Shown: in pieces, positions 17,006 to 45,726 of the stretch
Layout of the letters: each line of letters starts with the position of its first letter
How positions within the stretch are numbered: position 1 is the first letter of the stretch
Source: an uncultured virus (IMG/VR IMGVR_UViG_3300034023_001061)
Taxonomy: Duplodnaviria > Heunggongvirae > Uroviricota > Caudoviricetes
Virus record (IMG/VR): IMGVR_UViG_3300034023_001061
Reading direction: 5' to 3' (one strand)
Length of the DNA: 64,000 nt
Program-made: the position numbers and the translations under genes
The notes under the pieces: model-generated
Databases searched by the model: none
What the model saw: only the letters and a program-made list of their open reading frames with translations
What the model was told of the DNA's origin: nothing

Positions 17006-17042
17006 TTGACAACTCGCCCGCGCCGCGCGTAGCGTCGTGCGT
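17006..17042 (+). promoter_or_regulatory. class A sigma70-like promoter, probably leaderless
   Basis: TTGACA-18 nt-TAGCGT-7 nt-ATG. Confidence 0.7.
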
Positions 17043-17591
17043 ATGGCAACCTCGAAGAAGCCCCGCAAGTCCCGTCCCTCCGCGCTGGCGTGCAAGCGCC
17101 GTGGTCGCGCACTGGCGAAGAAGCGCACCGCGTCGGCGGGCAAGTCGCTCGCAGCGTGCCGTCGCCCCGCGAAGCGCGCCTCCGTCCGCAACGGTTCGCC
17201 GTCGAAGGCGGCGACGCTGCGCAGCCTCGACTCGTTCGCGCGCGCGTACCTCGAAGCGGCGCTCTGGTCGTCGACCGACAACGCGGACGATCGCGGCGGT
17301 GAACCGCTCGACCGCAACTACGGCCCCGAAGACATCGAGTCGAAGACGCTCGCGAAGATGGTCGCCGACTGCAAGAAGTTTCAGAAGCAGAACGCCAGCG
17401 ATATCGGCGGTGAATCGTCGCTCGCCGGTCACGACTTCTGGCTCTCGCGCAACGGTCACGGCAGCGGGTTCTTCGACAACGACGACACGTTCGGCGCCGA
17501 CGAAGCGGAGCGTCTGCAAGAGGCGGCGGAGGCGTTCGGCAACTTCGACCTCTACGTTCACCGCGGTCGCATCTACGGGTCGCGCGGGTGA
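17043..17591 (+). CDS. phage-type protein (AGHDFWLSRNGHG motif) with 51-aa basic leader ending ASVRNG
   Basis: leader nearly identical to that of ORF 45211; acidic globular domain follows. Confidence 0.75.
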   Translation: MATSKKPRKSRPSALACKRRGRALAKKRTASAGKSLAACRRPAKRASVRNGSPSKAATLRSLDSFARAYLEAALWSSTDNADDRGGEPLDRNYGPEDIESKTLAKMVADCKKFQKQNASDIGGESSLAGHDFWLSRNGHGSGFFDNDDTFGADEAERLQEAAEAFGNFDLYVHRGRIYGSRG

Positions 17592-18292
17592 TGCCGCGCG
17601 CCACGAAGAAGCACGCGCCGCCCGCGTACCGTTCGTCCGCCCCCGTGTGCGACTGCGGATCGGGCATCCCCCGCTCGGAGACCGCTGAGATCCCGAGTTC
17701 GGGCGGGCGGCGCGGCTGCGACAAGTGCTACAACCGCAAGTACGCGGCCTACGCCGACACCGACGGCGGCGGTGCGGAGTACAGCGACGATCCATCGTCG
17801 GGCTCGGGCTGGCACTACAGCCGCAACCCGCCGCAGAACTTCACGATCACGTCGGGCGGGCGCCGCATCCGCGTTGCCGGTGGCAACGTGTTCCCGTCGA
17901 AGCGCGACGCCCTCGCGGCGGCGGCGTACCTGCGCGCGACCGACGGCGGCGACTACCGCGTGCGGGCGCTCAAGCCCGGTGATTCCGTCGTCCGCGTCGC
18001 CGTGGCGAACGGCAAGAAATCGACGCGCGCCGGTAAGAAGCGCGGCGCTACGGGCGTACGACGGAGCATGAGCAACGGACGCACGAAGTCGCAGACCGAA
18101 ACCTCGAATCCCTTCGCCGACGCTCACGAGCGCAGGGTGCGGGAGTGGTACGCCGACCAGACGGACAACCGCCTGCGATCGCTCTACACGGGCGCGTGGG
18201 ACGCGAACGACGCCGACGGGGCTCGTTATGCGGTCGCAGAAATGAAGCGGCGCGGCTTCGATACGAGCATGTACCGCTGGCCCGGTCTGTAG
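17591..18292 (+). CDS. basic multi-segment protein with internal SRNP, ANG and RRSMSNG motifs
   Basis: N-terminal CxC/CxxC segment, then segments separated by N-[G/P] motifs. Confidence 0.65.
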   Translation: MPRATKKHAPPAYRSSAPVCDCGSGIPRSETAEIPSSGGRRGCDKCYNRKYAAYADTDGGGAEYSDDPSSGSGWHYSRNPPQNFTITSGGRRIRVAGGNVFPSKRDALAAAAYLRATDGGDYRVRALKPGDSVVRVAVANGKKSTRAGKKRGATGVRRSMSNGRTKSQTETSNPFADAHERRVREWYADQTDNRLRSLYTGAWDANDADGARYAVAEMKRRGFDTSMYRWPGL

Positions 18293-18294
18293 CC

Positions 18295-18843
18295 CTACCG
18301 CCGCTCCGACACCCGATCCGAAACCACACGCCAGTCGACCAGCCGGTCGAAGAACGCCTCGCACCACGCGCGCCTGTTCGGCCCGCGATCGAGGTAGTAG
18401 GCGTGCTCCCACACGTCGAGGGGGAGCACCGCGCGGCCCCACTGAGCCCGCGTGCCGTGGTTGTGGGCCAACTCGACGAACAGCCGCCCACGCTCCGCGG
18501 AGAGCAGCGCCCATCCGCTGCCTTGCGACGCGAGCGCCGTGCGGATCATCGCCTCGCGCAGCGCGGCGTACCCACCGAACTCGCGGTCGACCATGCGGGC
18601 GAGCGGCCCGACGGGAGGCCCGCCGCCGAACGGCGAGAGCGACGGCCACAACAGCGTGTGCAGCACGTTCCCGCCGAGGTTGAACTCGAACGACTCCGAC
18701 GTGAGCCCGCCACGATTCAGCGCGGCGACGTAGTTCGCGTGCAAAACGTCGTGGTGGAACGTCATCGTGTCGCGCGAGACGAACGGTTGCAGCGCGTCGT
18801 AGGCGTAGGGCAGCGGCGGGAGCGTGTACATCGCGGCGTGCAT
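18295..18843 (-). CDS. sod: Fe/Mn superoxide dismutase
   Basis: YTLPPLPYAYDALQP, FHHDVLH, GSGW and DVWEHAYY signature. Confidence 0.92.
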   Translation of the reverse strand: MHAAMYTLPPLPYAYDALQPFVSRDTMTFHHDVLHANYVAALNRGGLTSESFEFNLGGNVLHTLLWPSLSPFGGGPPVGPLARMVDREFGGYAALREAMIRTALASQGSGWALLSAERGRLFVELAHNHGTRAQWGRAVLPLDVWEHAYYLDRGPNRRAWCEAFFDRLVDWRVVSDRVSERR

Positions 18844-18866
18844 CCTACCGCGTCGGCGCGAGCGAC

Positions 18867-19625
18867 TCAAGGAGTCGCGGCGAGCCGTCGTACGGCACGG
18901 ACGGCCCATGCTTCGCCGCAGAACGCGGGCGCGAGGTACTCCCACGGGAGCCACGCGGACCCACCGTCGCACCACGTAGAATTCCACGAATTAACGATCC
19001 GCACGCAGCGCATCGGAATATCGTAGCCAACGACCAGCATCGCGTGCCCGCCGACGGTGTAGCCCCACGGCTCCTCGATCACGTCGCCCGTCGCCTGCTC
19101 GAACGATTGCGGGATCGAAATCCCGACGACGACGGGGTGCCCCGACGCGATCTCCCACAAAATTGCATCCACCTCGATCGCGAGCGCCTCCGCGTTCACC
19201 ACGCGCGGCGCATCGGCGGGGAGGGGCGGGGGCTCCTCCATCCATTGCGGCCCCCACACGGGCTTGTGAGGCCACTGCGCTTCGGGCAACCACCCCGCGC
19301 GCAGCGCCTTCACGCCGTCAGCGATAAGGCACCCGTGGTCGAGCCCCGTGGTGCCCTCCATCGCCCGCGCGCGGTAGTACACGTCCTTGCGCGACGGCAC
19401 ATCATCTTCGTAGCGCGCGTTCGCGAGCACGATGCGGACGGACTGCGCGAGCGCCTGCGCGACGCACGACCCGACGGCGCCCTGATCGAAAACGTCGTGC
19501 GGCACGCCCTTGAGGAGCACGGCGGGCGGGAGCGTGTCGCGGGCGTTGCTAGGAGCGTGCGAGACGCCAGCGTACGTGCGACCGACGGATGCGGGGGAGA
19601 TCCAGCCGAAGTTTCGGATGTTCAC
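18867..19625 (-). CDS. papain-like cysteine protease (peptidase C1A)
   Basis: DQGAVGSCVAQA, GGHAMLVVGYD and VNSW...W..GG. Confidence 0.9.
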   Translation of the reverse strand: MNIRNFGWISPASVGRTYAGVSHAPSNARDTLPPAVLLKGVPHDVFDQGAVGSCVAQALAQSVRIVLANARYEDDVPSRKDVYYRARAMEGTTGLDHGCLIADGVKALRAGWLPEAQWPHKPVWGPQWMEEPPPLPADAPRVVNAEALAIEVDAILWEIASGHPVVVGISIPQSFEQATGDVIEEPWGYTVGGHAMLVVGYDIPMRCVRIVNSWNSTWCDGGSAWLPWEYLAPAFCGEAWAVRAVRRLAATP

Positions 19626-19634
19626 GCGAAGAGT

Positions 19635-20851: not shown

Positions 20852-21174
20852 TTTGTATCCTCGATCGGTTCGTGGTCGGCGGTGAGGGGGCGCCACTCGC
20901 AGCGTTCGGAGGCGAACCAGTCGAGCCGGTCGCAGTCGTTGTCGCTCCCGTGCAGGAGCATCGCCTGCGCGTGCCCCGACACGGGGTGAACGTGAAGGCA
21001 CGCCACGCCCCCGTAGAACTGCGGGAACGTGTCGCAGCGATAGCGGAACTGCCACAACCCCATCGGGGCCGTCGTCTCGCATCCCTTGACGCTCGCGGTG
21101 TGCCAGCGATGCGCGGTCGCGTGAGCGGTCACCTCCGCGGCGGTCGGGCGGCGTGGCATCCACGGGGCGCTCAC
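20848..21174 (-). CDS. hypothetical protein
   Basis: overlapping start/stop; PTAAEVTAH resembles PTPAEIAEH in the ORF ending at 41237. Confidence 0.55.
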   Translation of the reverse strand: MSAPWMPRRPTAAEVTAHATAHRWHTASVKGCETTAPMGLWQFRYRCDTFPQFYGGVACLHVHPVSGHAQAMLLHGSDNDCDRLDWFASERCEWRPLTADHEPIEDTK

Positions 21175-21515: not shown

Positions 21516-21546
21516 GGAACGTATACGCGCGACGCTCGCGCGTTAT

Positions 21547-22128: not shown

Positions 22129-22217
22129 GGCGCGAACGTAACCGATTGCGGCGCGACGTGTCACGCGCAATACGCGGTTGCGTTCTGGCGTCGTTCGTGT
22201 AGCGTCGCAGACTTGCC

Positions 22218-23114
22218 GTGAGGATCGCCACCTACAACGTGCATGGCTGGGTCGATGCCGAGATGGCACCGAACGCAACGCGCGTCGTTTCGTTGCTTCG
22301 TAAGATCGATGCCGACGTGATCGCTCTGCAAGAAGTGACGCGAGGCTTCGGTTTCGACGTGCCGGACGATTGGTACGACTCCGACGAAGAGTTAGCTCCC
22401 GGCTACGTTCGCCCTGATATCCTAGAGGTAGCATCGGCACTCAGGATGCACGCGGTGATCGCTCCTGCCGGGTGGGGAGCAAACGTTTTGCTGGCGAGGC
22501 AACGCCCCGTTGACACGCGATCGTTGTCCATAGGCGACGGCCCCGGTGGGCGGCGCAGCGCGGCCATTGCGACGATCGCGACGCCGATGGGCGACGTTGA
22601 CTTCGTAGCTACGCACCTTGACCCCGCAAGCGAGTCTGCGCGCGTAACTCAACTCCGAAACCTCGCGACGGTCGTCGGTGATCGCAAGGCCGTCATCATG
22701 GGCGATTTCAACGCCATACGGTTCTCCGACTACTCACAAAGTCGTCTCTACGATATCGCTCGCGAGCGCCGCGAGGCTGGCGTAGAGGAGCCATCGGAAT
22801 CGGTCATCCGGTCGGCCGACGCGCTGGGATGGATTGACCTCGCGAGACTTGCTGTTTCCGATTCCGCCGACGATTACTACCGATCGTTGTCGTCGCCGAT
22901 GCCGCGCAAAATGGCGACGACGAGTAACTTCGGCACGCGTGTCGACTATGTATGGGCCACGCGGTCGCTCGTAGATGCCGCGAAGGTGCGCGACGCGCGA
23001 ACGTTTGGCGGCGGAGTGTCCGATCATCGAGCGGTCGCCCTCACCATAACGTCCGACGTTGCGCGCGGTGCCGGTCGTCGTGTACTGTCACGACGTGGCA
23101 TCAAGAAAACCTAG
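22218..23114 (+). CDS. endonuclease/exonuclease/phosphatase (EEP) family protein
   Basis: IATYNV, DVIALQEV, THLD, MGDFN, RVDYVW and SDH motifs. Confidence 0.9.
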   Translation: MRIATYNVHGWVDAEMAPNATRVVSLLRKIDADVIALQEVTRGFGFDVPDDWYDSDEELAPGYVRPDILEVASALRMHAVIAPAGWGANVLLARQRPVDTRSLSIGDGPGGRRSAAIATIATPMGDVDFVATHLDPASESARVTQLRNLATVVGDRKAVIMGDFNAIRFSDYSQSRLYDIARERREAGVEEPSESVIRSADALGWIDLARLAVSDSADDYYRSLSSPMPRKMATTSNFGTRVDYVWATRSLVDAAKVRDARTFGGGVSDHRAVALTITSDVARGAGRRVLSRRGIKKT

Positions 23115-23817
23115 CGGCCCTACACCCGCAGAAGTTCGTGCGATCGTCGAGTCGCTCGCGAGCGGTCGGCGCATCACGCGAGAACTCACCCGCACGGCGT
23201 CGTTCCGTCGCTGGTTCGGAAACAGCGCCGTCGCCGACGAAGGCGGCAACCCGATGGTTGTCTACCACGGCACAACGGCGTCGTTCGATGCGTTCGCACC
23301 GCACCATCGCAAGGGCGAGATGCTCGGCTTCGGTGTTCACTTCGCCGAAGACGTCGAACTCGCAGCGAAATACGCGTTCGAGACTGGTGTCGCGCGCAAG
23401 GGTTCCTCGCCGCGCCTGATCGCCGCGTTCCTCTCCGTGCAGTCACCGCTCTACGGCGACTCGATCGTGCCGGAGGGGACGCCCGAGTTCGCGCTTGCGA
23501 AGAAACTCTGGACCGTGCGGTTCTGGGCACCGCAGGACGCCGACGGCGTGCCGTGCGTGTACGTGCAAAACGCCATCGACAAGACCGACTCGAAGCGGGC
23601 GGAGAGGCTGATCCGTGACGCCGGTTACGACGGTGTTCGGTACATGGCATCGCTGAGAGCCGCCGCCGCGCCCGGACACGTTCGCGAGACGGGCCGAAGC
23701 CGATCGTGGATCGTATTCGAGCCGACGCAGATCAAGTCCGCGACGGACAACATCGGCACGTTCGATCCAGCGCACCCGTCTATCGTGAACCCTCCGCGCC
23801 GTCTGCGGCGACGATGA
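23095..23817 (+). CDS. ADP-ribosyltransferase-fold protein (ART-PolyVal-like) with C-terminal NP-basic tail
   Basis: FRRWFGNS...PMVVYHGT..FDAF...GVHFAE...GYDGV...IVFEPTQIKSATDNIGTFD; start supported by TTGCGC-18-TACTGT-6-GTG. Confidence 0.75.
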   Translation: MASRKPSGPTPAEVRAIVESLASGRRITRELTRTASFRRWFGNSAVADEGGNPMVVYHGTTASFDAFAPHHRKGEMLGFGVHFAEDVELAAKYAFETGVARKGSSPRLIAAFLSVQSPLYGDSIVPEGTPEFALAKKLWTVRFWAPQDADGVPCVYVQNAIDKTDSKRAERLIRDAGYDGVRYMASLRAAAAPGHVRETGRSRSWIVFEPTQIKSATDNIGTFDPAHPSIVNPPRRLRRR

Positions 23818-23892: not shown

Positions 23893-24192
23893 TCACCCGA
23901 GCATCTTGAGCACGTCGTCCCAGCGGTCGGCGTGCTTGAGCAGCGCCTCCAGTACCGCGGGGCGAACGTGGCCCGCCAGCGCCAGCAACCGATCGGCGGC
24001 GGCACGCTTCATCCCCGATGCCGCAGCGATGGCGTCGAGCGTCTCCGCCTTCACAGTGCAGTGACCGACCTCGATCTTGCGGACGGTTACGGCGGAAACG
24101 TGCGCCTCCCGCGCCACCGCCAGCGCCGACTTGCCCGTTCGCTCGCGGGCCTTCTCCAGCAAGGCGCCCACCTTCGTACGATTATCGTTCAC
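23893..24192 (-). CDS. XRE-family helix-turn-helix regulator
   Basis: LLEKARERTGKSALAVAREAHVSAVTVRKIEVG; AAAGG RBS. Confidence 0.75.
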   Translation of the reverse strand: MNDNRTKVGALLEKARERTGKSALAVAREAHVSAVTVRKIEVGHCTVKAETLDAIAAASGMKRAAADRLLALAGHVRPAVLEALLKHADRWDDVLKMLG

Positions 24193-24247
24193 AACGGCTA
24201 CCTTTCGTGTTGCGTGCGGTTCTGGCGTAGTGTACGGTCCGGTTGCC

Positions 24248-25534
24248 GTGCTCATTCACCGCGGGTTCAAATATCGTTGCTATCCCACGCCGGAGCAAGT
24301 CGCGTTGCTCGACGACTGGCAGGGCAAGCAACGATTTCTGTGGAACGTCGCCAACGCGCAATACGAGCACGCGAGTTCGCGCTGCAAGACAGACAGTTGG
24401 CGTCGTCCAAACGCGTTCAGTCAGAGTTACGAGCTCACCGCGTTGCGGACTGAATACCGATGGTTAGTCGACGTTCCTCGCGACGTCCAAGTGCAGTTGC
24501 TCGTGGAACTTGACCTCGCGTGGCAACGTTTCTTCAAGGGGCTCGCCGACCGTCCGCAGTTCAAGCGCAAGGGAAAGCATCGAGCGCCCGTGATTGGTCC
24601 GAACCCGAAGTCATTTCGTCTCGAAGGGGAGGGCCGCAAGCGTCACGTTGTGTTCCCGAAACTCGGGCGCCTCGCAATCGTCTACCACCGCGACCCCGTC
24701 GGCAAGATGGCGAAGTGCGCTGTCACCCGCGATGGCGACGCGTGGTACGTGAGCATCGTGTGCGCCATCGAGGTTGACGACCCGCCCGTCTCGACGAAGC
24801 CGATCGTCGCGTACGATCGCGGCGTGACGAACACGATCGCGGGCAGCGACGGGAGCATCGTCAAGAACCCGAAGCACGCCGAACGGTCGGAGAAGCGAAC
24901 TAAACGTCTCCAGCGCGCCGCGGCGCGCAAGAAGAAGGGCAGCAAGAATCAGAAGAAGGCATACGCGCGCGTCGCAAGGGCGCAGCGTAGGGTGAAACGT
25001 CAGCGCACTCATTTTCTGCACGTCGAGTCGAAGAAGGTCGCCAAAAACCACGGCGTCGTCATCTTCGAGAAACTCAACCTGAAGAACATGACGAAGAGCG
25101 CGAAGGGCACCGTCGAGAAGCCGGGACGCAACGTCAGCGCGAAGTCCGCGCTGAATCGTGGCTTGCTCGGTGCGGCGCTCGGCGAGTTCAAGCGCATGGT
25201 CGCGTACAAGATCGTGGCCGAAGGCGGTCGCATCATCGAGGTTCCGCCCGCGTGGTCGTCGCAGACCTGCGCGGAGTGCGATCACGTCGATGCCGCGTCT
25301 CGCAAGGGCGAACGATTCAAGTGCACGGCGTGTGGTCACACCGACCACGCGGACGTGAATGCGGCAAGGGTACTTCTTGCACGAGGGATGCTCGTGCTCG
25401 CCGTGGAACCCACGGTGACAGTCTGTGGAGACGCGGGCGCCCGAGGCCGGTCGACGAAGCAGAAACTCCGCGTCGTGAGGCGCGGAACCCGTCGCAGCGG
25501 TGAGGCGAAAGCCCCGTCGCTCACGACGGGGTAG
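24248..25534 (+). CDS. tnpB: TnpB RNA-guided nuclease (IS200/IS605/IS607 family)
   Basis: FKYRCYPTPEQ N-terminus; RuvC residues in YDRG, FEKLN and HADVNAA; CAEC/CTAC zinc ribbon. Confidence 0.92.
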   Translation: MLIHRGFKYRCYPTPEQVALLDDWQGKQRFLWNVANAQYEHASSRCKTDSWRRPNAFSQSYELTALRTEYRWLVDVPRDVQVQLLVELDLAWQRFFKGLADRPQFKRKGKHRAPVIGPNPKSFRLEGEGRKRHVVFPKLGRLAIVYHRDPVGKMAKCAVTRDGDAWYVSIVCAIEVDDPPVSTKPIVAYDRGVTNTIAGSDGSIVKNPKHAERSEKRTKRLQRAAARKKKGSKNQKKAYARVARAQRRVKRQRTHFLHVESKKVAKNHGVVIFEKLNLKNMTKSAKGTVEKPGRNVSAKSALNRGLLGAALGEFKRMVAYKIVAEGGRIIEVPPAWSSQTCAECDHVDAASRKGERFKCTACGHTDHADVNAARVLLARGMLVLAVEPTVTVCGDAGARGRSTKQKLRVVRRGTRRSGEAKAPSLTTG

Positions 25535-25541: not shown

Positions 25542-25810
25542 GTTCTCAAGGAGTCGCTCTCAACGTCACCCACTCGCGCGAACTGCGCGCCGCCGCAAAC
25601 TCCGTCAAGGGCCTCGCCCGCCACCGCATTCACCTCGATCGCCGCAGCGTCGGCGACGAGACGCGGTATCACCGCCGTCGCAATCGCGGGCCGCGCTCGC
25701 GGCCACAGCACCCACGCAACGCCCGCTACTGCGAGCACCGCCCCCGAAGCAACGGCAACGCCCACCGCCACGTCGCGCGCCGCACCGTTCTTCTGCGACA
25801 CCCGCCTCAA
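25538..25810 (-). CDS. small membrane protein with RRVSQKNG N-terminus
   Basis: one TM helix; TTGA overlap with the upstream gene. Confidence 0.5.
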   Translation of the reverse strand: MRRVSQKNGAARDVAVGVAVASGAVLAVAGVAWVLWPRARPAIATAVIPRLVADAAAIEVNAVAGEALDGVCGGAQFARVGDVESDSLRT

Positions 25811-27435
25811 TCTTCACTCCACGCAAGCGTCACGAGCGTATTGTTGGCGTTGGCGCTCTGCGCTGCGACCGTGATGATCTCGCCTGGGAGCATGGCGATT
25901 CCGGTCTGCGCGAGGTCAACGTTAGCCGACCCGTTCGGCCCGACGTTCGATGCAAAGACTTGCACTCCGCCGCTCACTCCAGTGGAGGCAGTATCCACGG
26001 CCACGCTTGAAACGTTGGCATTGACGGGGATGAAGTTCGGCGTGCCAGCAAGCACCGGGTCACGGTAGAGCGTGAACACCGTCGGGCGAGAGCCGTCGCC
26101 TGCAAACGACAGGATCGTAAGCGTAACTTGCACCCTCGACGCGCGGTTCTGGAACGACCGCATCAGCATGATCGACAGGACCGGCGTGAGCGTGCCGGAA
26201 CTGATCGAACGCGATGCGCTCGTCGAGAAGCGAGGGTTCGTCGGCGCGTCGGTGCCTTGCAGAAACGTGGCGCCGGACGCTCCTTGAATCGCAACCGACG
26301 TCGTGCTGCCGACGTTCTGCGAGACCCATCGCACGGACGCGGACGGTTGCCTGAGAACGACCGCCGTTCGCGTGTTCGTGTTGCGTATCACGTTGACCAG
26401 AATAGGGAGCCCGGTGGTCTGGCTCTCGACGTAAAAAAACGCGTTGCCGAAGCCGAGGTACTGGTAGGCGATGCGGTAGACGTTGCCGAGCGATGGATTG
26501 AGAAGCATCCCCGATGGATTGCCCGCGTTGCCCGAGCCGTCGAGCGTGTCGACGTTCCACGCGGACTGCGGTGTGAACGATACGGCGTTGGCGACCGCAG
26601 CCGTCACGACCGCGCCGACACCGACCGCGGTGCTCGCGGTTAGCGAGACGGTGCCCACCGCCGCGTTGCACTGCCGCGCGACGAAGTACACCACGGAGTC
26701 GATCGCCTGCGCGTCCCATCCCTGCCCCGCGTTCGCGTAGTTGCCCTGCGCGATCTCCCACGCGGTCGTGATGGTGCTCGCACCGTTCGTGACGGCGACG
26801 CTCACGGGCGTGCCGTCGAGCGTGACGGTGACGTTTTCCGCGGTCGATGATTTCGTTGTGATCGTGAGCGTCTGTATCGCCCGAGTCCCGTTCGAGACGT
26901 GAACGATTCCGAACGCACTCCCGCCGTTGTAACCGAAGTAGTAGCCCGACTCAGCGTTGCCGCCGCCAGCCCATTGCCGGTTGTTCGTGACGGGGGCGGC
27001 GAAGATCGCGGTGAGTTCGACGAGCGAGCCTTGCCCCGGATGGTACGTGATTGCTCGCCTCGACTGGAGCACCGAGTAGCCCGTGGCAGACGTCCCACAC
27101 CCGGCCGATGCGATCCCGCTTGCAACCGACACACTCGCGCCCGTGCCGTACGAGACCGATCGCCACGTATCGGTGTTGATTCCGTAGACGAAAGCACCCT
27201 GAGCCATTGGATAGAGTCCGACCGCTTGGAGCTCCCCAAATGCCGTGAGGGGGCCAGCGATCGTCGCGGACACGTTCCCCGAAACCGGCTGCGTGACACC
27301 GCTTCCATCGGTCGAGAGGCGCCCGCCCACCAGCGCAGCGGGGAGTTGCGTCGTGCTCACCGGGAGCGGGTCCGGCAGCGTAACGACCACGGCACCCGAA
27401 ACCGGACCACCTACAGTGCGCGCCAGTTCGCTCAC
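25807..27435 (-). CDS. putative virion spike/fibre structural protein, beta-rich
   Basis: Ser/Thr/Gly/Val-rich; QSAWNVDTLDGSG...PSG...YQYLGFG resembles phage structural proteins. Confidence 0.6.
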   Translation of the reverse strand: MSELARTVGGPVSGAVVVTLPDPLPVSTTQLPAALVGGRLSTDGSGVTQPVSGNVSATIAGPLTAFGELQAVGLYPMAQGAFVYGINTDTWRSVSYGTGASVSVASGIASAGCGTSATGYSVLQSRRAITYHPGQGSLVELTAIFAAPVTNNRQWAGGGNAESGYYFGYNGGSAFGIVHVSNGTRAIQTLTITTKSSTAENVTVTLDGTPVSVAVTNGASTITTAWEIAQGNYANAGQGWDAQAIDSVVYFVARQCNAAVGTVSLTASTAVGVGAVVTAAVANAVSFTPQSAWNVDTLDGSGNAGNPSGMLLNPSLGNVYRIAYQYLGFGNAFFYVESQTTGLPILVNVIRNTNTRTAVVLRQPSASVRWVSQNVGSTTSVAIQGASGATFLQGTDAPTNPRFSTSASRSISSGTLTPVLSIMLMRSFQNRASRVQVTLTILSFAGDGSRPTVFTLYRDPVLAGTPNFIPVNANVSSVAVDTASTGVSGGVQVFASNVGPNGSANVDLAQTGIAMLPGEIITVAAQSANANNTLVTLAWSED

Positions 27436-27887
27436 GTTACGCTCCCTCCGCCGTAGACCGACACCGTGCCCGGTAGCGCGCCGTCCACATCGGCCATCCT
27501 CACGCGCAACCAGAAGTGACACGAGACGTCGATGATATCGGGCCACGACGTCGAGAACGTCGTGCCCGCGCCCGACGGCGACACGGGCTTCACGCGCTCG
27601 GTGTATGCAGTGATCGCGCCGACGGCGAACGACGCCCCGTCAAGGATCAACTGCGGGCGCCAGTCGGCGTCCGTGGTCGGCGGCGAGGTGGTCGGTGACC
27701 GCGAGATGTCGACCGCGATGATCGGTGAGCCCGTGCCCCCGCCGCCGTTCGCCACGTAGAGCACGTCGACCGCCGCCCGCGTGAAGTTCGCCACGCAGAA
27801 AACGGCGCCGACTTGCACGATCGTGCCCGTGAGCGCGACATTGCTCGCGATCGTGAAGAACGGCGAGAGTTTCTGGAGCGCAAGCAT
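27432..27887 (-). CDS. putative small beta-sandwich structural protein
   Basis: beta-rich composition; GTGA overlap with the fibre-like gene. Confidence 0.55.
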   Translation of the reverse strand: MLALQKLSPFFTIASNVALTGTIVQVGAVFCVANFTRAAVDVLYVANGGGGTGSPIIAVDISRSPTTSPPTTDADWRPQLILDGASFAVGAITAYTERVKPVSPSGAGTTFSTSWPDIIDVSCHFWLRVRMADVDGALPGTVSVYGGGSVT

Positions 27888-35732: not shown

Positions 35733-36590
35733 ATGGCACACGCACGTCGCTCGCTCCGCAATCACCACGGCAAGCCCCACGAGCACGCCCCCGGCGACCC
35801 GCTCGGCGTGTACCTCCCGCCGCTGGGGAAGTGGAAGAAGGACGATCACGGGATGCGCAGTTGGCGACACCCTGAACTGCCGCTGCGATTCACCATCACC
35901 GGCAGCAGTGGCGGCGTTGCCGTGAGGTACAACGACGATTACTCGTACGACGAGACGTGGTTCGATGGCCCCAACCCGCGAGACGTTCTCGCCGCGATGA
36001 AGGTCTGGTACTCGCAGCAGACAATGGCGTCGCTGCGCCGCGCCGAACGCAACCCCGACTGGTCCGCGATGCGCGCGAAGGCGTCGCACTACGGTTCGCG
36101 CGCCGCCACGGGTGCCCGCGAGGCGTACGAGTGGACGGCGCCCCGTGCGAAGCGTGCCGCAGCGGCGACGTGGGAGGGCGCGAAGGCGACGGGTCGCGCC
36201 GTCAAGCGCGGAGCGAAGCGCGCGGCCCCCGTGCTCGCCCGTGGCGCCCGCAGCGCGGCGGAGAGCATGGAACGCTGGTCGCAGACGAACGGGCGCTGCG
36301 CGATGCGGAACGGGGCCACGCAAGGGCGCATGATCCTCGTCGGGAACAAGCGCCTCGGTGGGCATATCCTCCGCTACTCCGGTCACTACGGCGACGCCGC
36401 GAGTCGCACGGGACTGGCGTTCTACAATCGAGAGGCGATCCCGTTGAAGGACGCGCGCGACGCACTTCAGGATCTCAAGTGGATGGCAGGGTTCGACACG
36501 ATTCACGGCAGGGCGTGGCAACGCGGTGAGAAGTCAGTTCTCGCGACCACGATCAAGGGACTCGAAGCGGCGATCGCTCGCGCGAAGTAG
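35733..36590 (+). CDS. basic multi-segment protein with RRSLRN, RRAERNP and AMRNG motifs
   Basis: three compositionally different segments separated by RN motifs. Confidence 0.7.
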   Translation: MAHARRSLRNHHGKPHEHAPGDPLGVYLPPLGKWKKDDHGMRSWRHPELPLRFTITGSSGGVAVRYNDDYSYDETWFDGPNPRDVLAAMKVWYSQQTMASLRRAERNPDWSAMRAKASHYGSRAATGAREAYEWTAPRAKRAAAATWEGAKATGRAVKRGAKRAAPVLARGARSAAESMERWSQTNGRCAMRNGATQGRMILVGNKRLGGHILRYSGHYGDAASRTGLAFYNREAIPLKDARDALQDLKWMAGFDTIHGRAWQRGEKSVLATTIKGLEAAIARAK

Positions 36591-38082: not shown

Positions 38083-38109
38083 GCGTGTTCTACGCTCCGT
38101 CGTGGGCCG

Positions 38110-41500: not shown

Positions 41501-43693
41501 GGTGTGCTCCGCGATCTCAGCGGGCGTCGGCGGCGTTGCGCGGCCCGCGGCGGTCACGCGAGCACCGCCGCGATGGTCTCCGCCGAAACGTACTTCGAGG
41601 CGAGAGCGTCGACCTTCGCTTGCGACGCGGCGTGGTTCGGGCCGCTCAAATCCACCACGCCGAAGTCGATGCACTGCGCGACGCACTCGCATCGACTGCG
41701 TGCGGTGCGTGCGGCGAGGATCGCCTCGTCGGCGTCGGGATCGGCCCACGCATTGGCGGCGGCTTCGATCGAGAACGCTGCTGCGCATCGCACGTACACG
41801 TCACGAGAGAGGCTCCGGTAGTTCTCGTGGTATTCTTCGTTGAATGGTTGCACGAGCGCGTCCGCCTCGGCGACGTTGCCCGCGAGGCACTCCGCAAGCA
41901 TCGCTTGCACGCGCGCATCGTCGCACAAGTCGGCGGCGACGCGCGCGTACGCGGAGGCGACGGCGCGAACGTCGTCGAGGCTTGAGGTTGTCGTCGCGGT
42001 CTTGTGGTCGGTCGGCATGTTCTTCGGTTCCTTCACCGCAGCGAGCCGCGGCCCGTGAAGGTGCGCGGTTGTTGCGTGCGCTGCGCGGCGCTGGCTGGCG
42101 ATGGCTAGGTGCTGGCGGCGTCCTGCATGCCGAGGAGGATGCCTCGCCGCATCTCGACTTCGGCAGCAGCGCGGCCGACGTCTCCGGGCTGCGACAGAGG
42201 CGAACCGCTGCGGAGGTCTTCGATCGCAGACTCCAGACGTTCGACCGCGGCGTCGAGGGCGCTCTGCGCGCGGTTGATCTTGAGGGCGATGGCAGCGTTG
42301 GTTCCGGGCGCGGTCGTCATGGTGTCCTGTTCCTTCTTCGGGGCGTCACGCCCTCGATGCCACTTGTACGTCGCCAGTCGAGGCGGCCTTACGTCACCCT
42401 GCCGATTTCTCCGCAGCGGCGGCGAGGCGCTGTTTCGCCACCGTCACGTCGCACTGCTCGGGCACACCGTGGGCTTGGTAGCCCGCGCAGCGGGCATTCT
42501 CGGCCTCGTGTGAGACGTTGAACGCGATATCCGCGAGCGACTTCGCCGCGGAGTAGGCGGCGCTGTTCACGCGCTGCGCGGTCTCCGTGGCGCCGTCGCG
42601 GTAGCCCCGCAGGTAGTTGTCGTTCTCGCGGTTCGCGACCGCTTCGACGTTGACCGCCGCCGCGACCGCTTCGTCGATCGCCAGCGTCACGAGGCGTTCG
42701 ACTTCGGCGCGACGCTCGGGCGTCGTGCGGAGGGCTGCGAGTGCTGCGGTGACCTTCGATCGTGTGTTCATAGTGCCTCAATGCCGCAAGCCCCGTGGCG
42801 CGAGCCTACGGGGCGGGGGGCGGCGTGTTGTTTCAGATCGCGTCCCACGCTTTCAGCACGAGGGCGTGCTTGCGGGCGAACGCGTCGGCGTCGCCCGCGA
42901 ACGCTGCGTAGTCGCCGCGCTCGTAGGCGGAGTTCATCGACGCGCTGATCTCGCCGAGTTCGGCGACCTCGCGCTGGAGTGTCTTGAACGCCGCTGCCCT
43001 GCCTGCCTTCGTGTGCTTCATGGTGACTCTTCTACGCCTCCGGTCGCCCGGTTCTTTACGTCGCTCCGCCGATTCCATCCCGCGCCCCGCGAGCACGGAC
43101 AACCGGCGCGATATCGGGCCATCGCCCGCGGGACGGTTGTGCGTTCAGCGGCGCATCGCGCCCGCGAGGTAGTACCTCGCGATGTAGAACGTCGAATCGT
43201 CGCCGTTCCAGTCCGCAACCCACTGCTCGCACTCCCGGCGCGACTTGAAGGTGCGCACCGGCTGCATCGTTTCGGAGCGAAGCGCGCACCATCCCTCACG
43301 GTCTGGAGCGAGTTTCATGAAGGCTGCGCGCACGGTCACGACGCACCGCGTTCGCGGCAGGTTTCGATGTTCATAGCGAGCCTTCTACGCCAGTCACGTC
43401 GCAGTTCTTTACGCTGCCCGTCGGTTTTCTCCGCTGGCCTTCTTTACGGGCGCGCTCGCTAAGTTTCGGCGCCGTCGCCTGAACAACGGCCCGCGCGCCG
43501 ACGGCGTAGTGAGGCTCGCTTTACGAAGCCGTATCGTCGCTCACCGGAACGCCTCCCGCGAGGCGCAGTGCGCGCCGCCGTTCACCACCACGCACACGTC
43601 GTCGGGCGAGCACCCGCACGGCGCCGTCGGGTACGCCGCACGCATCGGAGCGCACGCGATCATCGCCACCGCGAGAACGATCGCGCGCGTCAC
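38580..43693 (-). CDS. array of small hypothetical genes (e.g. 39001-39282, 39316-39975, 40056-40469, 40541-40864, 40919-41203, 41237-41557, 41554-42036, 42105-42320, 42394-42771, 42833-43021, 43145-43339)
   Basis: consistent minus-strand GC3 bias; many preceded by class B motifs. Confidence 0.55.
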
Positions 43694-43989
43694 TTCTTGC
43701 CCCCGAGGGCGCCCATGCCCGCGAGCATCACTTCGCGCAGCGTCGCCGCCATCGTCTCGCCGCGTGACGTAGCGAGCGCACGCCACCGCTCGCGCAGCGC
43801 CCGGTCGAGCAGCGGGGCGCCGTCGACAAGAAACGCGAGCACGATGTCGGTGATCCGCGCCTCCTTGCCGTCGGGCGTGTGGTACTCCCGCCGCATCTCG
43901 GTGATGCTCGCGTAGATGCCGGGGGGCACGCGGGCGAACACACGGGGGTTGCCACGTTTGCCCGGTCGTTTCGTCGGTTCGTCGTCCAT
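43690..43989 (-). CDS. small putative DNA-binding protein divergent from the recombinase
   Basis: PRVFARVP strand-helix-helix pattern (RHH-like). Confidence 0.45.
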   Translation of the reverse strand: MDDEPTKRPGKRGNPRVFARVPPGIYASITEMRREYHTPDGKEARITDIVLAFLVDGAPLLDRALRERWRALATSRGETMAATLREVMLAGMGALGGKK

Positions 43990-44108
43990 CGCGGGCAATA
44001 GTGCGCTTTCGCTTCTCAATTGTCAACGCCGGTTCCCGTGTGCCGCGATTGACACGACCTACAATACTAATTGTCGCGCGTGTAAGGTTCATGTGCTACG
44101 GTTCGCCC

Positions 44109-45155
44109 ATGAATGAGGAATCGTTGTCAGAAATCGTCGTTCTCGACGCAGACCCCACCCCCGCCGACGATCACGCGCTGGTGCCGCTCAAGCGTCGCCT
44201 GCCGAACGATCGAAACCCCATGCTCCTGTACCTGGGGCGCCTCACGGGCGAGACGTCCGCGAAGACGATGGCGCGCGTGCTCAAGCGCGTCGGCGCCGTG
44301 ATCGCTTCGTGGATGGGCGCCGACGACGTTCCGTACGATCAACTCCCGTGGCATATGCTCCGCTACCAGCACGTCGCACGGCTGCGCTCGCAGTGGGCGC
44401 AGGCGGGGCTCAAGCCTCGCACCATCAACCAGTACCTCAGTGCGGTGAAGGGCGTGATCGACGAAGCCGAGAACCTCGGGTTGATCCCGCCCGACGATGC
44501 CCGCCGCGTCGAGAAGGTGAAGGGGCTCAAGATCCGCGACGAGTTGCTCGCGGGACGTTCGATCGAAGACGACGAGGTTCGCGCCCTCGTGTCGGCGTGC
44601 GACACGTCGGTGATGGGGTTGCGCAACCACGCGCTGCTCGCGCTTCTGTTCGGTGGCGGGCTGCGCCGTCGCGAGGTCTCGAAGGTGCGCATCGGCGACT
44701 TCGACGCGGCGCATGGCGAAGTGCGCGTGCGGGGCAAGGGCGCGAAGGAACGCCTCGTGCCGCTCTCTCCCGACGCGGTGACGATGGTGAAGGCGTGGCT
44801 CGTGCGTCGCGGCACGAGCGACGGGAACGGCGCCCCGTTGCTCGTGGCGTTCACTTTAGAGGGCGAGGTGAAGCGCGCGAACGGCGCGGTGACGCACCTC
44901 ACGTCGTCGGGCGTCTACCGCGTGCTCTGCGCCATCGCCGAGAAGGCGAACGTTCGCGATATCAGTCCGCACGATGCCCGCCGCACGCGCATCACCGAAA
45001 TGCTCCTCGCCGGGGAGAACATCGTGACGGTGCAGCGCATCGCGGGGCACGAGTCCGTCGAGACGACGGGGCGCTACGTTCGCACGGGGCAAGAGGCGGC
45101 GCGTGAGTCCGCCGCGCGCGTCCCCATGCTCAAGCGCAAGCCCGCCGCGGAGTAG
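44109..45155 (+). CDS. tyrosine recombinase/integrase (XerC/D-like)
   Basis: GLRRREV (R), GKGAKER (K), SPHDARRT (HxxR), AGHESVETTGRY (H, Y). Confidence 0.92.
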   Translation: MNEESLSEIVVLDADPTPADDHALVPLKRRLPNDRNPMLLYLGRLTGETSAKTMARVLKRVGAVIASWMGADDVPYDQLPWHMLRYQHVARLRSQWAQAGLKPRTINQYLSAVKGVIDEAENLGLIPPDDARRVEKVKGLKIRDELLAGRSIEDDEVRALVSACDTSVMGLRNHALLALLFGGGLRRREVSKVRIGDFDAAHGEVRVRGKGAKERLVPLSPDAVTMVKAWLVRRGTSDGNGAPLLVAFTLEGEVKRANGAVTHLTSSGVYRVLCAIAEKANVRDISPHDARRTRITEMLLAGENIVTVQRIAGHESVETTGRYVRTGQEAARESAARVPMLKRKPAAE

Positions 45156-45210
45156 CGCGCGCCCGCGCTCGACGGTTGCGTTCTGCGGGCGTTCGTGTAG
45201 CGTCACACGT

Positions 45211-45726
45211 ATGGCAACCAAGAAGAAGTCTACGAGGAAGCGTCCGTCGAAGTTGGCGTGCAAGCGCCGCGCGAAGGCGCTCCCGAAGAAGCGCACGGCG
45301 TCGGCAGGCAAGTCGCTCGCAGCGTGCCGTCGCCCTGCGAAGCGCGCCTCCGTCCGCAACGGCTATTACAGCCCGTCCGAAGTCGCCGAACTCAACGAGT
45401 ATTTCAGCGCCGACAGCGTGCGGCGTCGCGAGGCCGCGCGCGCAGCATCGGTCCCCGACTTGTCGGGGTGGCAAGCGTACCGCGGCGGGTCGTACGGACT
45501 GAGAGTGTCCGAGGACCGCTCCTACGAGATCGAACCCGTATCGCGCGTCGCGCGCAAGAACGATCACGCGGGCTACGTTCTTCGCGTGAACCACGGAGTC
45601 TACCAAGACTTCGTAGGCCGCAACGGGAAGTACGCGGACCCTTCGCGCGGTGCGAAGGATTACCTCTTCCGCACACCCGAGCAGGCCGTTCTCGCCGCAC
45701 GCTCGCACCGCCGCGACAACCTCTGA
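45211..45726 (+). CDS. hypothetical protein with 51-aa basic leader ending ASVRNG
   Basis: TTGCGT-16-TAGCGT-7-ATG; leader shared with ORF 17043. Confidence 0.75.
   Translation: MATKKKSTRKRPSKLACKRRAKALPKKRTASAGKSLAACRRPAKRASVRNGYYSPSEVAELNEYFSADSVRRREAARAASVPDLSGWQAYRGGSYGLRVSEDRSYEIEPVSRVARKNDHAGYVLRVNHGVYQDFVGRNGKYADPSRGAKDYLFRTPEQAVLAARSHRRDNL

What the first reader, a model, noticed from the sequence alone, without database searches (positions are those of the whole stretch)
17006..45363. The same 51-codon leader plus promoter fused to two different domains 28 kb apart
Seen: 17043-17195 (MATSKKPRKSRPSALACKRRGRALAKKRTASAGKSLAACRRPAKRASVRNG) and 45211-45363 (MATKKKSTRKRPSKLACKRRAKALPKKRTASAGKSLAACRRPAKRASVRNG) are near-identical in protein and DNA, and both follow TAGCGTC-x-x-x-CGT-ATG. 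Similarity stops at the RNG codons and the downstream domains look unrelated. Inference: promoter plus tag is a portable module that captures new cargo domains by recombination, and the RNG motif is the module boundary.
Basis: seen in the sequence. Interest (0 to 1): 0.72.

Follow-up and report, generated by a model that had tools for sequence, protein, structure and literature searches.

The report
Swappable basic address tag on phage proteins
An uncultured lake phage starts many unrelated proteins with the same arginine/lysine-rich piece ending in Arg-Asn-Gly and swaps what lies behind it, most likely as an address or clip-off label whose destination is still untested.

Summary
Genes at 17043-17591 and 45211-45726 share a 51-codon basic leader ending RASVRNG. 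Similarity stops at the Gly codon, and the two cargo domains show no detectable homology (BLASTP E 2.2; hhalign probability 0.05%).

The leader is the long form of a lineage-wide tag: a basic stretch of 7-55 residues ending R-[RK]-[SA]-x-R-N-(G/S/P/T). The strict motif occurs 16 times in 173 ORFs of 131 kb of this phage, against 0.43 in shuffles. It sits at N-termini or between domains, on a UvrD-like helicase, ParB-like and ART-like domains and many orphans.

In relatives the long leader sits on 8 unrelated cargo families. At two syntenic loci the cargo is replaced directly behind the tag. Leader copies within one genome are homogenised, while synonymous change between genomes shows selection on the peptide.

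Most tagged genes follow a recurrent TAGCGT box 6-10 nt before ATG. That box also precedes untagged genes, and tags occur without it.

What the tag does is inferred only. It is most likely a targeting label for DNA or the capsid, possibly clipped by a phage cysteine protease. The nearest parallels are the T4 capsid-targeting sequence and polyvalent proteins. No cut, binding or packaging has been shown.

The parts
17006..17042 (+). Promoter-like stretch of gene A: TTGACA (17006-17011), 18-nt spacer, TAGCGT (17030-17035), 7 nt, then ATG
   Evidence: Read. TAGCGT-N5-10-ATG occurs 8 times in the window against 0.94 expected. The generic sigma-70 scan does not call it.
17043..17195 (+). Long leader of gene A, 51 codons: MATSKKPRKSRPSALACKRRGRALAKKRTASAGKSLAACRRPAKRASVRNG
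   Evidence: AF2 pLDDT is about 50 over residues 1-50.
17196..17591 (+). Cargo of A. It belongs to a widespread phage family (phrog_1915, 'EAALWSS...GHDFWLTRNGHG'), mostly alpha-helical, of unknown function
   Evidence: phrog_1915 E 7e-20. 894 homologues, mostly without a leader. AF2 pLDDT 87-97. No PDB fold match.
45176..45210 (+). Promoter-like stretch of gene B: TTGCGT (45176-45181), 16-nt spacer, TAGCGT (45198-45203), 7 nt, then ATG
   Evidence: Not called by the generic scan.
45211..45363 (+). Long leader of gene B, 51 codons: MATKKKSTRKRPSKLACKRRAKALPKKRTASAGKSLAACRRPAKRASVRNG
   Evidence: Contigs of other runs diverge at 45362.
45364..45726 (+). Cargo of B, an orphan domain with one homologous family member (P0122) and no Pfam or PHROG hit
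   Evidence: The single-sequence fold is poor.
15849..15914 (+). Short tag MSRRRLHPRRNSTASRRSVRNG on gene D (15849-16361), which has a weakly ART-PolyVal-like cargo
   Evidence: PF18760 E 0.22. The ortholog in L003 has the tag MATKRRSWRNG.
16367..16417 (+). Short tag MATKRKPPARRRSVRNG on gene C (16367-16771), which has a ParB-like/VapB-like cargo
18059..18079 (+). Internal tag RRSMSNG, preceded by GKKSTRAGKKRGATGV, between the two domains of gene 17591-18292
   Evidence: In L002 the domain behind it is replaced.
35733..35762 (+). Short tag MAHARRSLRN on gene 35733-36590, preceded by TTGACG-N-TAGCGT-N6. There is a second, internal RRAERN at 36036-36053
50107..50148 (-). Short tag MARAKNVLRRSIRN on gene 49357-50148, with TAGCGT 9 nt before the ATG
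50226..50246 (+). Short tag MRRSHRN on gene 50226-50969
56528..56551 (+). Short tag (V/M)KRRSTRN on gene 56528-57448. An internal RRSERNG lies at 57017-57037, in front of two small basic domains (phrog_17747, phrog_14910, DUF5872-like)
   Evidence: The C-terminal domains are separate small genes in marine phages.
60554..60595 (-). Short tag MQSKKRTVRRSVRN on gene 60245-60595, with TTGACG-N17-TAGCGT-N10-ATG upstream
22172..22210 (+). Third copy of the B-type promoter stretch, in front of an untagged Exo_endo_phos gene (22218-23114)
12941..15304 (+). Calpain-like cysteine protease gene directly upstream of the tag-rich cluster; a candidate processing enzyme (inference only)
   Evidence: PF00648 E 2e-8 / 7e-9. 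Cys, His and Asn motifs lie at 14396, 15047 and 15098.
18867..19625 (-). Papain-like (C1/C39-like) cysteine protease gene beside the cluster; a second candidate processing enzyme (inference only)
   Evidence: PF00112 E 1.9e-4 and phrog_16701 E 2.7e-14. Motifs GSCVAQ, GGHAML and NSWNS.

Best explanation
The 51-codon leader is the long form of a lineage-specific, portable N-terminal tag. The tag is a disordered Lys/Arg-rich stretch, often beginning MAT-K/R, 7 to about 55 residues long, that ends in the short motif R-[RK]-[SA]-x-R-N followed mostly by Gly.

Shown here:
- About 18-21 of 173 predicted proteins in 131 kb of this uncultured 67.5% GC phage carry the tag at the N-terminus or between domains. 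The cargos are unrelated: a UvrD-like helicase, ParB-like and ART-like domains, and many orphans.
- The peptide, not the DNA, is conserved.
- Leader copies within one genome are homogenised by gene conversion.
- In relatives the cargo is exchanged with the breakpoint at the RN-G codons.
- Most tagged genes sit 6-10 nt behind a recurrent TAGCGT box with a TTGnnn box 16-18 nt upstream. That arrangement would give leaderless or nearly leaderless mRNAs.

Inferred, not shown: the tag is an address label that brings a set of DNA-acting enzymes and small effectors to one destination. That destination is most likely the phage DNA or the DNA-filled capsid, so that the proteins travel with the genome. 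The motif would be the docking site, and possibly the clipping site, for one of the two phage cysteine proteases encoded beside the tag-rich cluster. On this reading the system works like the T4 capsid-targeting sequence, or like a polyvalent protein broken into separately tagged pieces.

My odds: portable tag under selection about 0.85; one common destination about 0.6; capsid or DNA delivery with clipping about 0.35. The confidence given for this entry (0.4) is for the statement as a whole, including the inferred function.
For: Enrichment: the strict motif occurs 16 times (12 within the first 60 residues of the called ORFs) in 173 ORFs and 36,578 residues, against a mean of 0.43 and a maximum of 3 in 1000 shuffles.

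Peptide-level selection: the Arg and Ser codons of the tags vary (CGC, CGA, CGT, AGG, AGA; TCG, AGC, TCT, TCC). winB and L002 leaders differ at 8 codons, all synonymous. winB and L005 differ at 12 synonymous and 5 non-synonymous codons out of 40.

Concerted evolution: A and B differ at 3 of the last 66 nt, against 16-18 of 66 when compared with L005-L007.

Portability: there are 8 cargo families with a best cross-family E of 0.26, and both leader subtypes occur on 5 of 5 families with 2 or more members.

Syntenic replacement directly behind two tags, and contigs of other runs that break at 45362.

Conservation on orthologs: D carries RRSVRNG here and MATKRRSWRNG in L003. Of the 21 best helicase homologues whose N-termini I inspected, 7 have a basic N-terminus ending RN[GAT] about 5 residues before the conserved WTRNFGFPT, down to 36% identity.

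The tag is an add-on. In the AF2 model it has pLDDT about 50 while the cargo has 87-97. Untagged homologues of the A cargo start 7 residues behind the tag position.

Internal tags lie at domain joins.

Candidate proteases with intact catalytic motifs flank the cluster.

Precedents: the T4 CTS on IPI-III and Alt, and N-terminal propeptides of SPN3US head and ejection proteins cleaved at AXE (passages of PMC7411985); polyvalent proteins with ParB, ART, helicase and peptidase domains that are thought to be packaged and processed (passages of PMC5512222).
Against: No cut, DNA binding or presence in virions is shown.

No major capsid protein, portal, terminase or prohead protease was recognised in the 131 kb available, so nothing links the tags to head assembly.

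A UvrD-like helicase is an unusual virion cargo.

Several tags have Pro after the Asn (RNP). From general knowledge, Pro there would be a poor P1' residue if cutting were after Asn.

The one protein with a PHROG 'virion structural' hit that I checked (25807-27435) does not carry a tag once its SD-led GTG start is used.

The promoter call rests on recurrence only. The generic sigma-70 scan finds nothing at either locus, because TAGCGT matches TATAAT at 3 of 6 positions. No transcription start data exist.

Of 18 ORFs behind a TA[GA][CTA]GT box, only 8 carry a clear tag and 2 a loose one.
Confidence: 0.4

Rival explanations
1. The tag is a permanent nucleic-acid-binding arm that is never cleaved. 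The basic, disordered N-terminal extension tethers DNA-acting enzymes and small effectors to host or phage DNA or RNA inside the infected cell, as arginine-rich motifs and the basic arms of viral proteins do. The R-N end is part of the contact or a linker cap.
For: The identified cargos act on DNA: a UvrD-like helicase, ParB-like domains and an ART-like domain. The leader is very basic and predicted disordered. The tag length is free but the charge is kept.
Against: A plain charge-based arm would not need an invariant R-N at a fixed join to the cargo, nor recur between domains. Most cargos are orphans with no sign of DNA work. Cargo net charge shows no pattern.
Confidence: 0.25
2. The tag is an import signal for a phage-built compartment, or a sorting signal for a replication factory. 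It would be a phage counterpart of a nuclear localisation signal that gathers replication and counter-defence enzymes.
For: It is a basic, NLS-like, transferable N-terminal peptide on a helicase, nuclease-like and modifying enzymes. The genome is large: contigs up to 180,664 bp hold the B protein.
Against: No shell protein or importer homologue was recognised in the 131 kb scanned. Known nucleus-forming phages, as far as I recall, use no linear basic signal. Nothing here tests localisation.
Confidence: 0.08
3. The tag is an instability or regulatory tag. It would be an N-terminal degron, or an inhibitory propeptide that keeps potentially toxic enzymes short-lived or inactive until a protease removes it.
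For: Cargos include nuclease-like, ART-like and helicase proteins that could harm the producing cell. Two cysteine proteases lie next to the cluster.
Against: No known degron class matches. The many small orphan cargos and the internal tags are not explained better by this than by a targeting label. Untested.
Confidence: 0.1
4. The conservation is an expression feature at the DNA or RNA level. The first codons would be kept because they favour translation of leaderless mRNAs, or because they are a recombination site, and the peptide itself has no role.
For: Most tagged genes start 6-10 nt behind a TAGCGT box, and several share ATGGCAAC.
Against: Tag codons vary freely while the residues are kept. 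Tags also occur internally and on SD-led or coupled genes. The motif sits at a variable distance from the ATG. Untagged genes use the same box.
Confidence: 0.05
5. This is an ordinary gene duplication: A and B are paralogs whose C-terminal parts have diverged beyond recognition.
For: Only the shared leader and upstream box.
Against: The A cargo belongs to a large family that mostly lacks the leader, and B gives hhalign probability 0.05% against its profile and BLASTP E 2.2. Identity drops from about 97% to background within one codon. Six further unrelated cargos carry the same leader. Caveat: the B fold is of low confidence (mean pLDDT 52), so a remote structural likeness is not excluded.
Confidence: 0.02

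Closest known systems
Capsid targeting sequence (CTS) of phage T4 internal proteins IPI-III and Alt
   Same: A short N-terminal peptide shared by otherwise unrelated proteins and transferable to other cargo. In T4 it brings the proteins into the prohead and is then clipped at a short motif, and the cargo is ejected with the DNA (passages of PMC7411985).
   Different: There is no sequence likeness. Here the tag is strongly basic, 7-55 residues long, ends in R-N-(G) rather than a Glu-ending motif, also occurs between domains, and sits on a helicase. Neither packaging nor cleavage is shown, and no prohead protease was found in the DNA at hand.
N-terminal propeptides of head and ejection proteins of giant phages (SPN3US, phiKZ-like), cleaved at AXE
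   Same: Many proteins of one large phage carry N-terminal pieces of very different length that end in one short consensus, with some internal sites (passages of PMC7411985).
   Different: Those propeptides are not alike apart from the cleavage motif and are cut by a serine prohead protease. Here the tags share composition and motif, and the only protease candidates are cysteine proteases.
Polyvalent proteins of phages and conjugative elements (Iyer et al. 2017, PMC5512222)
   Same: The domain repertoire is similar (ParB-like, ART-PolyVal, helicase, papain-like peptidase), and that paper proposes delivery with the DNA and processing into units (passages). This phage has two- and three-domain proteins joined by tags.
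   Different: Here most units are separate genes, each with its own tag and often its own promoter. The shared basic join motif is not described in the passages I read.
Gly-Gly-joined basic tags of giant viruses
   Same: Lys/Arg-rich leaders or tails on about one protein in six, joined to unrelated bodies through a short invariant motif and read as clip-off, DNA-directed labels.
   Different: The virus realm is different, the join is different (Gly-Gly against R-N-G), and so is the protease type (clan CE). Those notes are AI notes and not independent evidence.
Arginine-rich motifs and nuclear localisation signals
   Same: Short, transferable, basic linear peptides that direct a protein to RNA, DNA or a compartment (recalled general knowledge).
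   Different: No known ARM or NLS consensus contains R-[RK]-[SA]-x-R-N. No target is known here.

Membership tests
T4-type capsid targeting sequence / prohead-protease propeptide | One short N-terminal peptide shared by unrelated proteins of the phage | tested here: met
   16 strict motifs in 173 ORFs against 0.43 expected. 8 cargo families carry the long leader.
T4-type capsid targeting sequence / prohead-protease propeptide | The peptide ends in the Glu-ending cleavage motif of the gp21/gp245-type protease (AXE in SPN3US) | tested here: not met
   All tags end in R-N followed by G/S/P/T. The AXE motif is quoted from PMC7411985.
T4-type capsid targeting sequence / prohead-protease propeptide | A prohead protease is encoded by the phage | tested here: inconclusive
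   There was no PHROG or Pfam hit to a prohead protease in the ORFs I scanned from the 131 kb. The genome is incomplete: contigs up to 180,664 bp exist.
T4-type capsid targeting sequence / prohead-protease propeptide | The cargo is present in the virion and the tag is removed on maturation | not testable with these tools
   This needs virion proteomics. No RNA or protein data were available (one search lists DNA runs only).
Polyvalent proteins (Iyer et al. 2017) | 2 to 15 effector domains in one polypeptide | tested here: not met
   A and B have one cargo domain each. Only a few tagged proteins have 2-3 units (17591-18292, 56528-57448, and merged 107965-108540).
Polyvalent proteins (Iyer et al. 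2017) | Hallmark domains (ART-PolyVal, ParB-like, helicase, processing peptidase) in the element | tested here: met
   PF18760 E 3e-20 at 23059-23817 (untagged). ParB-like/VapB-like domain in 16367-16771. UvrD-like helicase. Papain-like and calpain-like genes.
Integron-like cassette system | A tyrosine integrase tied to the promoter and cassette site | tested here: not met
   An integrase (44001-45155) lies before B only. Relatives L004 and L008 join the homolog of 43459-43526 to the promoter and leader without it. The A locus has none.
Integron-like cassette system | attC-like inverted repeats at the cassette ends | not tested
   No repeat search was run on the cargo ends.
Tat or Sec signal peptide | A basic n-region followed by a hydrophobic h-region | tested here: not met
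   No hydrophobic stretch follows the RR in any tag read. The A cargo starts as a soluble helical domain.
Leaderless genes behind a -10 box of TANNNT type | A TANNNT hexamer 6-10 nt before the start codon and no Shine-Dalgarno sequence | tested here: met
   TAGCGT-N5-10-ATG occurs 8 times against 0.94 expected. Upstream sequences were read.
Leaderless genes behind a -10 box of TANNNT type | Transcription starts at or next to the start codon | not testable with these tools
   No RNA run holds the stretch. The generic sigma-70 scan finds no site.

The most novel reading that the evidence does not exclude
The tag is a true protein-sorting signal of a phage. One short linear code, a basic run plus R-[RK]-[SA]-x-R-N, would route more than a tenth of the proteome to a single destination: the capsid interior together with the DNA, or a replication compartment. 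The routed proteins include a helicase, nuclease-like and ADP-ribosyltransferase-like enzymes and a changing set of orphan effectors. Because the tag is also a shared stretch of DNA, it would serve as an in-frame recombination handle. Related phages could then trade effector cassettes behind it without any dedicated recombinase, in an integron-like economy of 'tag and swap'.
Probability: 0.2. Interest if true: 0.85.

Novelty: new variant of a known kind. Interest (0 to 1): 0.66.

Why it matters
If the tag is a sorting or packaging code, it gives a sequence-readable list of the proteins that this phage lineage sends to one place. That set is otherwise invisible in uncultured phages, because almost all of the cargos are orphans.

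The tag would also be a ready-made handle for loading foreign proteins into a phage particle or compartment.

It would show how short shared tags speed the exchange of counter-defence effectors between phages.

Even on the modest reading, this is a clear case of concerted evolution of a peptide tag together with cassette-like cargo turnover at exact codon boundaries.

Tried and rejected
1. Whole genome: none is held for this window. I joined the window with the identical IMG/VR record G002 to get 131 kb.

2. Earlier notes on this genome or sequence: none.

3. Scan of IMG/VR for DNA encoding RRSVRNG (CGN/TCN codons only): 116 loci were returned. On inspection all looked like chance matches in non-coding frames, so it gave no evidence for the tag outside the lineage. 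Other codons and motif variants were not covered.

4. Single-protein scans of IMG/VR with the helicase and with gene 50226 found only records identical to this phage. The genome-contig scan gave one weak 17-residue match in an Acidobacteria MAG (L010), which I did not follow.

5. Complex prediction of the papain-like protease with leader residues 26-65: no answer (score 0.00). This is no evidence either way.

6. Fold of B from a single sequence: mean pLDDT 52, too poor for a fold comparison. Fold search of the A model against the PDB: no match with E <= 0.001. PDB sequence search and protein atlas for the A cargo: nothing usable.

7. A tag-like RRRERN in the long ORF of the virion structural gene (25807-27546) was rejected. 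The gene starts at an SD-led GTG overlapping the upstream stop, behind that motif.

8. Gene 50226 looked kinase-like by eye, but no Pfam or PHROG support was found.

9. Cargo charge: no common pattern.

10. RNA evidence: no RNA holder is listed.

11. A profile of the B cargo with its one homologue was not built.

12. tRNA search of the window: none found.

Full report
OBSERVATION. Gene A (17043-17591, +) and gene B (45211-45726, +) both begin with 51 codons of a Lys/Arg-rich leader that ends RASVRNG. The DNA alignment shows likeness from GTAGCGTC, 13 nt before the ATG, to the Gly codon, and none behind it. The likeness is uneven. In the last 66 nt of the leader the two copies differ at 3 positions; in the 54 nt before that, at 15. 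Upstream, A reads TTGACA-N18-TAGCGT-N7-ATG and B reads TTGCGT-N16-TAGCGT-N7-ATG, so only the TAGCGTC...CGTATG part is shared. The cargo parts are unrelated as far as sequence can tell: BLASTP E 2.2, and hhalign probability 0.05% for a 20-sequence profile of the A cargo against B. The fold of B from a single sequence was too poor (mean pLDDT 52) to add a structural test.

WHAT THE ELEMENT IS. The window is 67.6% GC and phage-like. It holds:
- a T4 Rnl1-type RNA ligase, an HNH endonuclease, a virion structural protein (phrog_1645), a tyrosine integrase and a TnpB;
- an ART-PolyVal protein, a PTH2 peptidyl-tRNA hydrolase and an Fe/Mn superoxide dismutase;
- two cysteine proteases, among many orphans.

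No genome is held for the window. Positions 43349-64000 are identical to the start of an 87,860-bp IMG/VR record, which let me extend the view to 131,208 bp. The B protein is on record on contigs up to 180,664 bp. DNA runs that hold the stretch are labelled lake water or freshwater metagenomes. The host is unknown, and the window holds no tRNA.

THE LEADER IS THE LONG FORM OF A COMMON TAG.
- Reading the N-termini of all called ORFs showed the same ending on many other proteins behind much shorter basic stretches. Examples are MATKRKPPARRRSVRNG (16367, ParB-like/VapB-like cargo), MSRRRLHPRRNSTASRRSVRNG (15849, weakly ART-like), MAHARRSLRN (35733), MARAKNVLRRSIRN (50148, minus strand), MRRSHRN (50226), KRRSTRN (56528) and MQSKKRTVRRSVRN (60595, minus strand). 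Beyond the window are MATTKKSPKKRPAKFASVRNG, MSKKSKTRVRRSVRNSG, MATTRKSPKRAAARKPAAKRRAVRNP, MPAKRRARRALRN and MRRSARRSPRIVRSRKSHRNG. The last of these sits on a 783-residue UvrD-like helicase (PF00580 E 7.6e-23; PcrA E 8e-9).
- The motif also lies between domains: RRSMSNG in 17591-18292, RRSERNG in 56528-57448, and KRTSVRNG in the two-unit protein at merged 107965-108540.
- The strict pattern [RK][RK][SA]xRN occurs 16 times in 173 ORFs (36,578 residues), 12 of them within the first 60 residues of the called ORF. In 1000 within-protein shuffles the mean was 0.43 and the maximum 3. A, B, the two tags of 107965 and RRSMSN are not caught by this strict pattern. The count is therefore about 18 proteins, or 21 with loose variants (RRSFPN, RRSLLN, RRATGN).
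- A contig of another run lays the short-leader paralog onto the B locus. Promoter and tag end align, and the middle 126 nt are replaced by 35 others. At the DNA level, then, the short and long forms are deletion or insertion derivatives of each other.

SELECTION IS ON THE PEPTIDE.
- The tags use many different Arg and Ser codons.
- Between contigs, leader differences are mostly synonymous. winB against L002 has 8 synonymous and 0 non-synonymous codon differences. winB against L005 has 12 synonymous and 5 non-synonymous out of 40.
- Orthologs keep the motif while the rest of the tag changes. Gene D has ...ASRRSVRNG here and MATKRRSWRNG in L003, at 78% DNA identity overall.
- I read the N-termini of the 21 best helicase homologues (51 had E <= 1e-20 among 8000 scored candidates). 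Seven have a basic N-terminus ending SHRN-G, [FY]ERN-A or ALRN-T about five residues before the conserved WTRNFGFPT, down to 36% identity. Two more are loosely alike. One starts right behind the tag position. Eleven have other N-termini.
- In the AlphaFold model of A (29-sequence alignment) residues 1-50 have pLDDT about 50 and the cargo 87-97. Untagged homologues of the A cargo begin 7 residues behind the tag.

PORTABILITY AND THE BOUNDARY.
- The A cargo is a widespread phage family (phrog_1915). It gave 894 hits with E <= 0.001 among 1319 candidates. Of the 17 I fetched, 4 carry the leader, one has another basic N-terminus, and the rest are solo or fused to other N-domains.
- Searching with B gave 19 hits among 235 candidates. 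Thirteen of the 15 newly fetched proteins carry the full leader on other cargos. One is B itself with a later start. One has a truncated leader fused to an SCP2_2 domain on a 1-kb contig, possibly a chimera.
- With 5 ORFs from metagenome loci added, 24 leader-bearing sequences fall into 8 cargo families at BLASTP E < 1e-3. The best cross-family E is 0.26. Some locus ORFs duplicate database proteins, so these are not 24 independent genes.
- A profile of the leader run against 1.84 billion representatives finds 7 full matches, all 113-182 residues long, plus 3 partial low-complexity hits. The long leader is therefore confined to this lineage and to small proteins.
- The two leader subtypes (RRGRALAKKR and RRAKALPKKR) each occur on all 5 families that have 2 or more members.
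- At the A locus the relative L002 is 80-90% identical through the promoter and leader. It falls to about 45% from the codon after RNG to the next gene, returns to 85-90% through the first domain of that gene up to its internal RRSMSNG, falls again behind that tag, and recovers at the gene's end. At the B locus L004 has the same upstream flank and leader but another cargo.
- Two contigs of another run match B up to 45362 and then run on unlike it.
- Within this genome the 3' halves of the two leaders are nearly identical (3 of 66 nt differ), while they differ at 16-18 of 66 from the L005-L007 leaders. L006 and L007, two contigs with the same accession prefix, carry leaders that differ at 4 of 120 nt but have different cargos. 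This is the pattern of gene conversion between copies.

THE PROMOTER.
- TAGCGT followed 5-10 nt later by ATG occurs 8 times in the window, against 0.94 expected; 0 of 100 shuffles reached 8. Five of these precede tagged genes (A, 35733, B, 50148, 60595). Two precede untagged ORFs, and one precedes no called gene.
- Over the 131 kb, 18 ORFs start 5-12 nt behind TA[GA][CTA]GT. Eight have a clear tag and two a loose one. A TTGnnn box lies 16-18 nt upstream in most, and no Shine-Dalgarno sequence is seen. The structural gene at 27435 does have GGAGG.
- The 39-nt B-type promoter stretch recurs at 22172-22210 before an untagged Exo_endo_phos gene and before the short-leader paralog.
- So there is a recurrent, very uniform promoter-like class that would give leaderless or nearly leaderless mRNAs and is associated with the tag but separable from it.
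- The generic sigma-70 scan calls nothing at either locus, and there are no transcript data. Whether the host sigma or the phage's own sigma-like protein (phrog_1740) reads these sites, and when, is open.

HOW IT MOST LIKELY WORKS.
- Shown: a transferable, disordered basic tag with a conserved R-N join, under peptide-level selection, on unrelated cargos, with cargo turnover at the join.
- Inferred: the tag is an address label. A motif that marks both N-terminal add-ons of any length and the joins between units is what viral maturation sites look like. In T4, a 10-20-residue capsid-targeting sequence brings IPI-III and Alt into the prohead and is clipped off. In SPN3US, seven head proteins lose N-terminal propeptides at AXE (passages of PMC7411985).
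- The recognisable cargos (ParB-like, ART-like, helicase) are those of the polyvalent proteins that phages are thought to package, deliver with the DNA and process with built-in peptidases (passages of PMC5512222).
- Two clan-CA-type cysteine proteases with intact catalytic motifs flank the tag-rich cluster at 15.8-18.3 kb. From recalled general knowledge, such enzymes favour a hydrophobic residue two places before the cut and accept Arg before it, which would fit x-R|N. This is a lead, not a test.
- Against this reading: no head-assembly gene was found in the DNA at hand. A helicase is an odd virion cargo. Several tags read R-N-P. Nothing shows a cut.
- A permanent DNA- or RNA-binding arm is the main rival. 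A compartment-import signal, a degron or inhibitory propeptide, and a pure expression element are lesser ones. Plain duplication is nearly excluded.

COMPARISON AND NOVELTY. The tag works like the T4 CTS or the propeptides of giant phages, but it fails the one sequence feature that could be tested (a Glu-ending motif), and the other defining features cannot be tested here. It is not a polyvalent protein, because most units are separate genes, and not an integron, because the integrase next to B is absent at the same place in L004 and L008. Earlier notes of this scan describe Gly-Gly-joined basic tags in giant viruses and a Gly-rich leader in another phage. They are unchecked AI notes, but they suggest that such tags may be a recurring solution. 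My two literature searches, for capsid targeting sequences and for polyvalent proteins, and the passages I read do not mention an R-[RK]-[SA]-x-R-N tag. No search was made for the motif itself, so I cannot say that it is not in print. I rate it a new variant of a known kind, with interest 0.66.

Noticed in passing
window 10668-12944 (+), about 11990-12050: A 758-residue ORF holds a run of about 20 prolines, and the opposite strand reads poly-Arg/poly-Gly. It is repeat-rich with two similar ~100-residue segments, has no family hit beyond a weak DUF4140, and follows a TAACGT box 6 nt before its ATG.
   Followed up: no
window 12941-15304 (+) and 15301-15846 (+): The calpain-like protease protein and the next ORF share a similar N-terminal start (MMNRVLLLTYGRPIVP / MNTALLATYGRTTVP). 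The second ORF ends in a hydrophobic, membrane-anchor-like tail. The two genes overlap by ATGA.
   Followed up: partly
window 24077-25534 (+); L002 2106-3023: A TnpB (OrfB_IS605 / Cas12f-like TNB) gene. In relative L002 its homolog lies inverted directly beside the SOD gene region, so the element has moved.
   Followed up: no
window 18295-18987 (-): An Fe/Mn superoxide dismutase is encoded by the phage, between the tag-rich cluster and the papain-like protease gene.
   Followed up: no
window 56996-57445 (+); L018, L019: The two small basic C-terminal domains of gene 56528-57448 (GKPGQWSARKAQ... and QRSLRKWTGEKW...) are separate adjacent small genes in Pelagibacter, Roseobacter, Methylophilales and Synechococcus phages (17 records). 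Their function is unknown.
   Followed up: partly
proteins P0149-P0152 (relatives of the helicase at merged 101299-103650): Several homologues of the tagged UvrD-like helicase carry intein or homing-endonuclease domains (PF14890, PF05204, PF14528) and are 1072-1233 residues long.
   Followed up: no
protein P0135 (1063-bp contig): A leader truncated after ...AACR continues into an SCP2_2 (Eis-type) domain. This may be an assembly chimera, a frameshift or a junction with host DNA.
   Followed up: no
window 3744-6161 (+) and 30454-31101 (-): A T4 Rnl1-like RNA ligase, a DUF488-N3a protein and a PTH2 peptidyl-tRNA hydrolase suggest a tRNA repair or translation-rescue set.
   Followed up: no
merged 117052-118434 (-) and 129609-131207 (-) (record G002): Two copies of a large HNH endonuclease (phrog_2214, E 1e-105) lie about 12 kb apart.
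   Followed up: no
merged 99667-100263 (-) and protein P0134: A tag-like motif (ERRRAERNGS..., ...SARNGT) sits at the very C-terminus of a protein with nothing folded behind it. It is possibly a remnant of recombination at tags.
   Followed up: no
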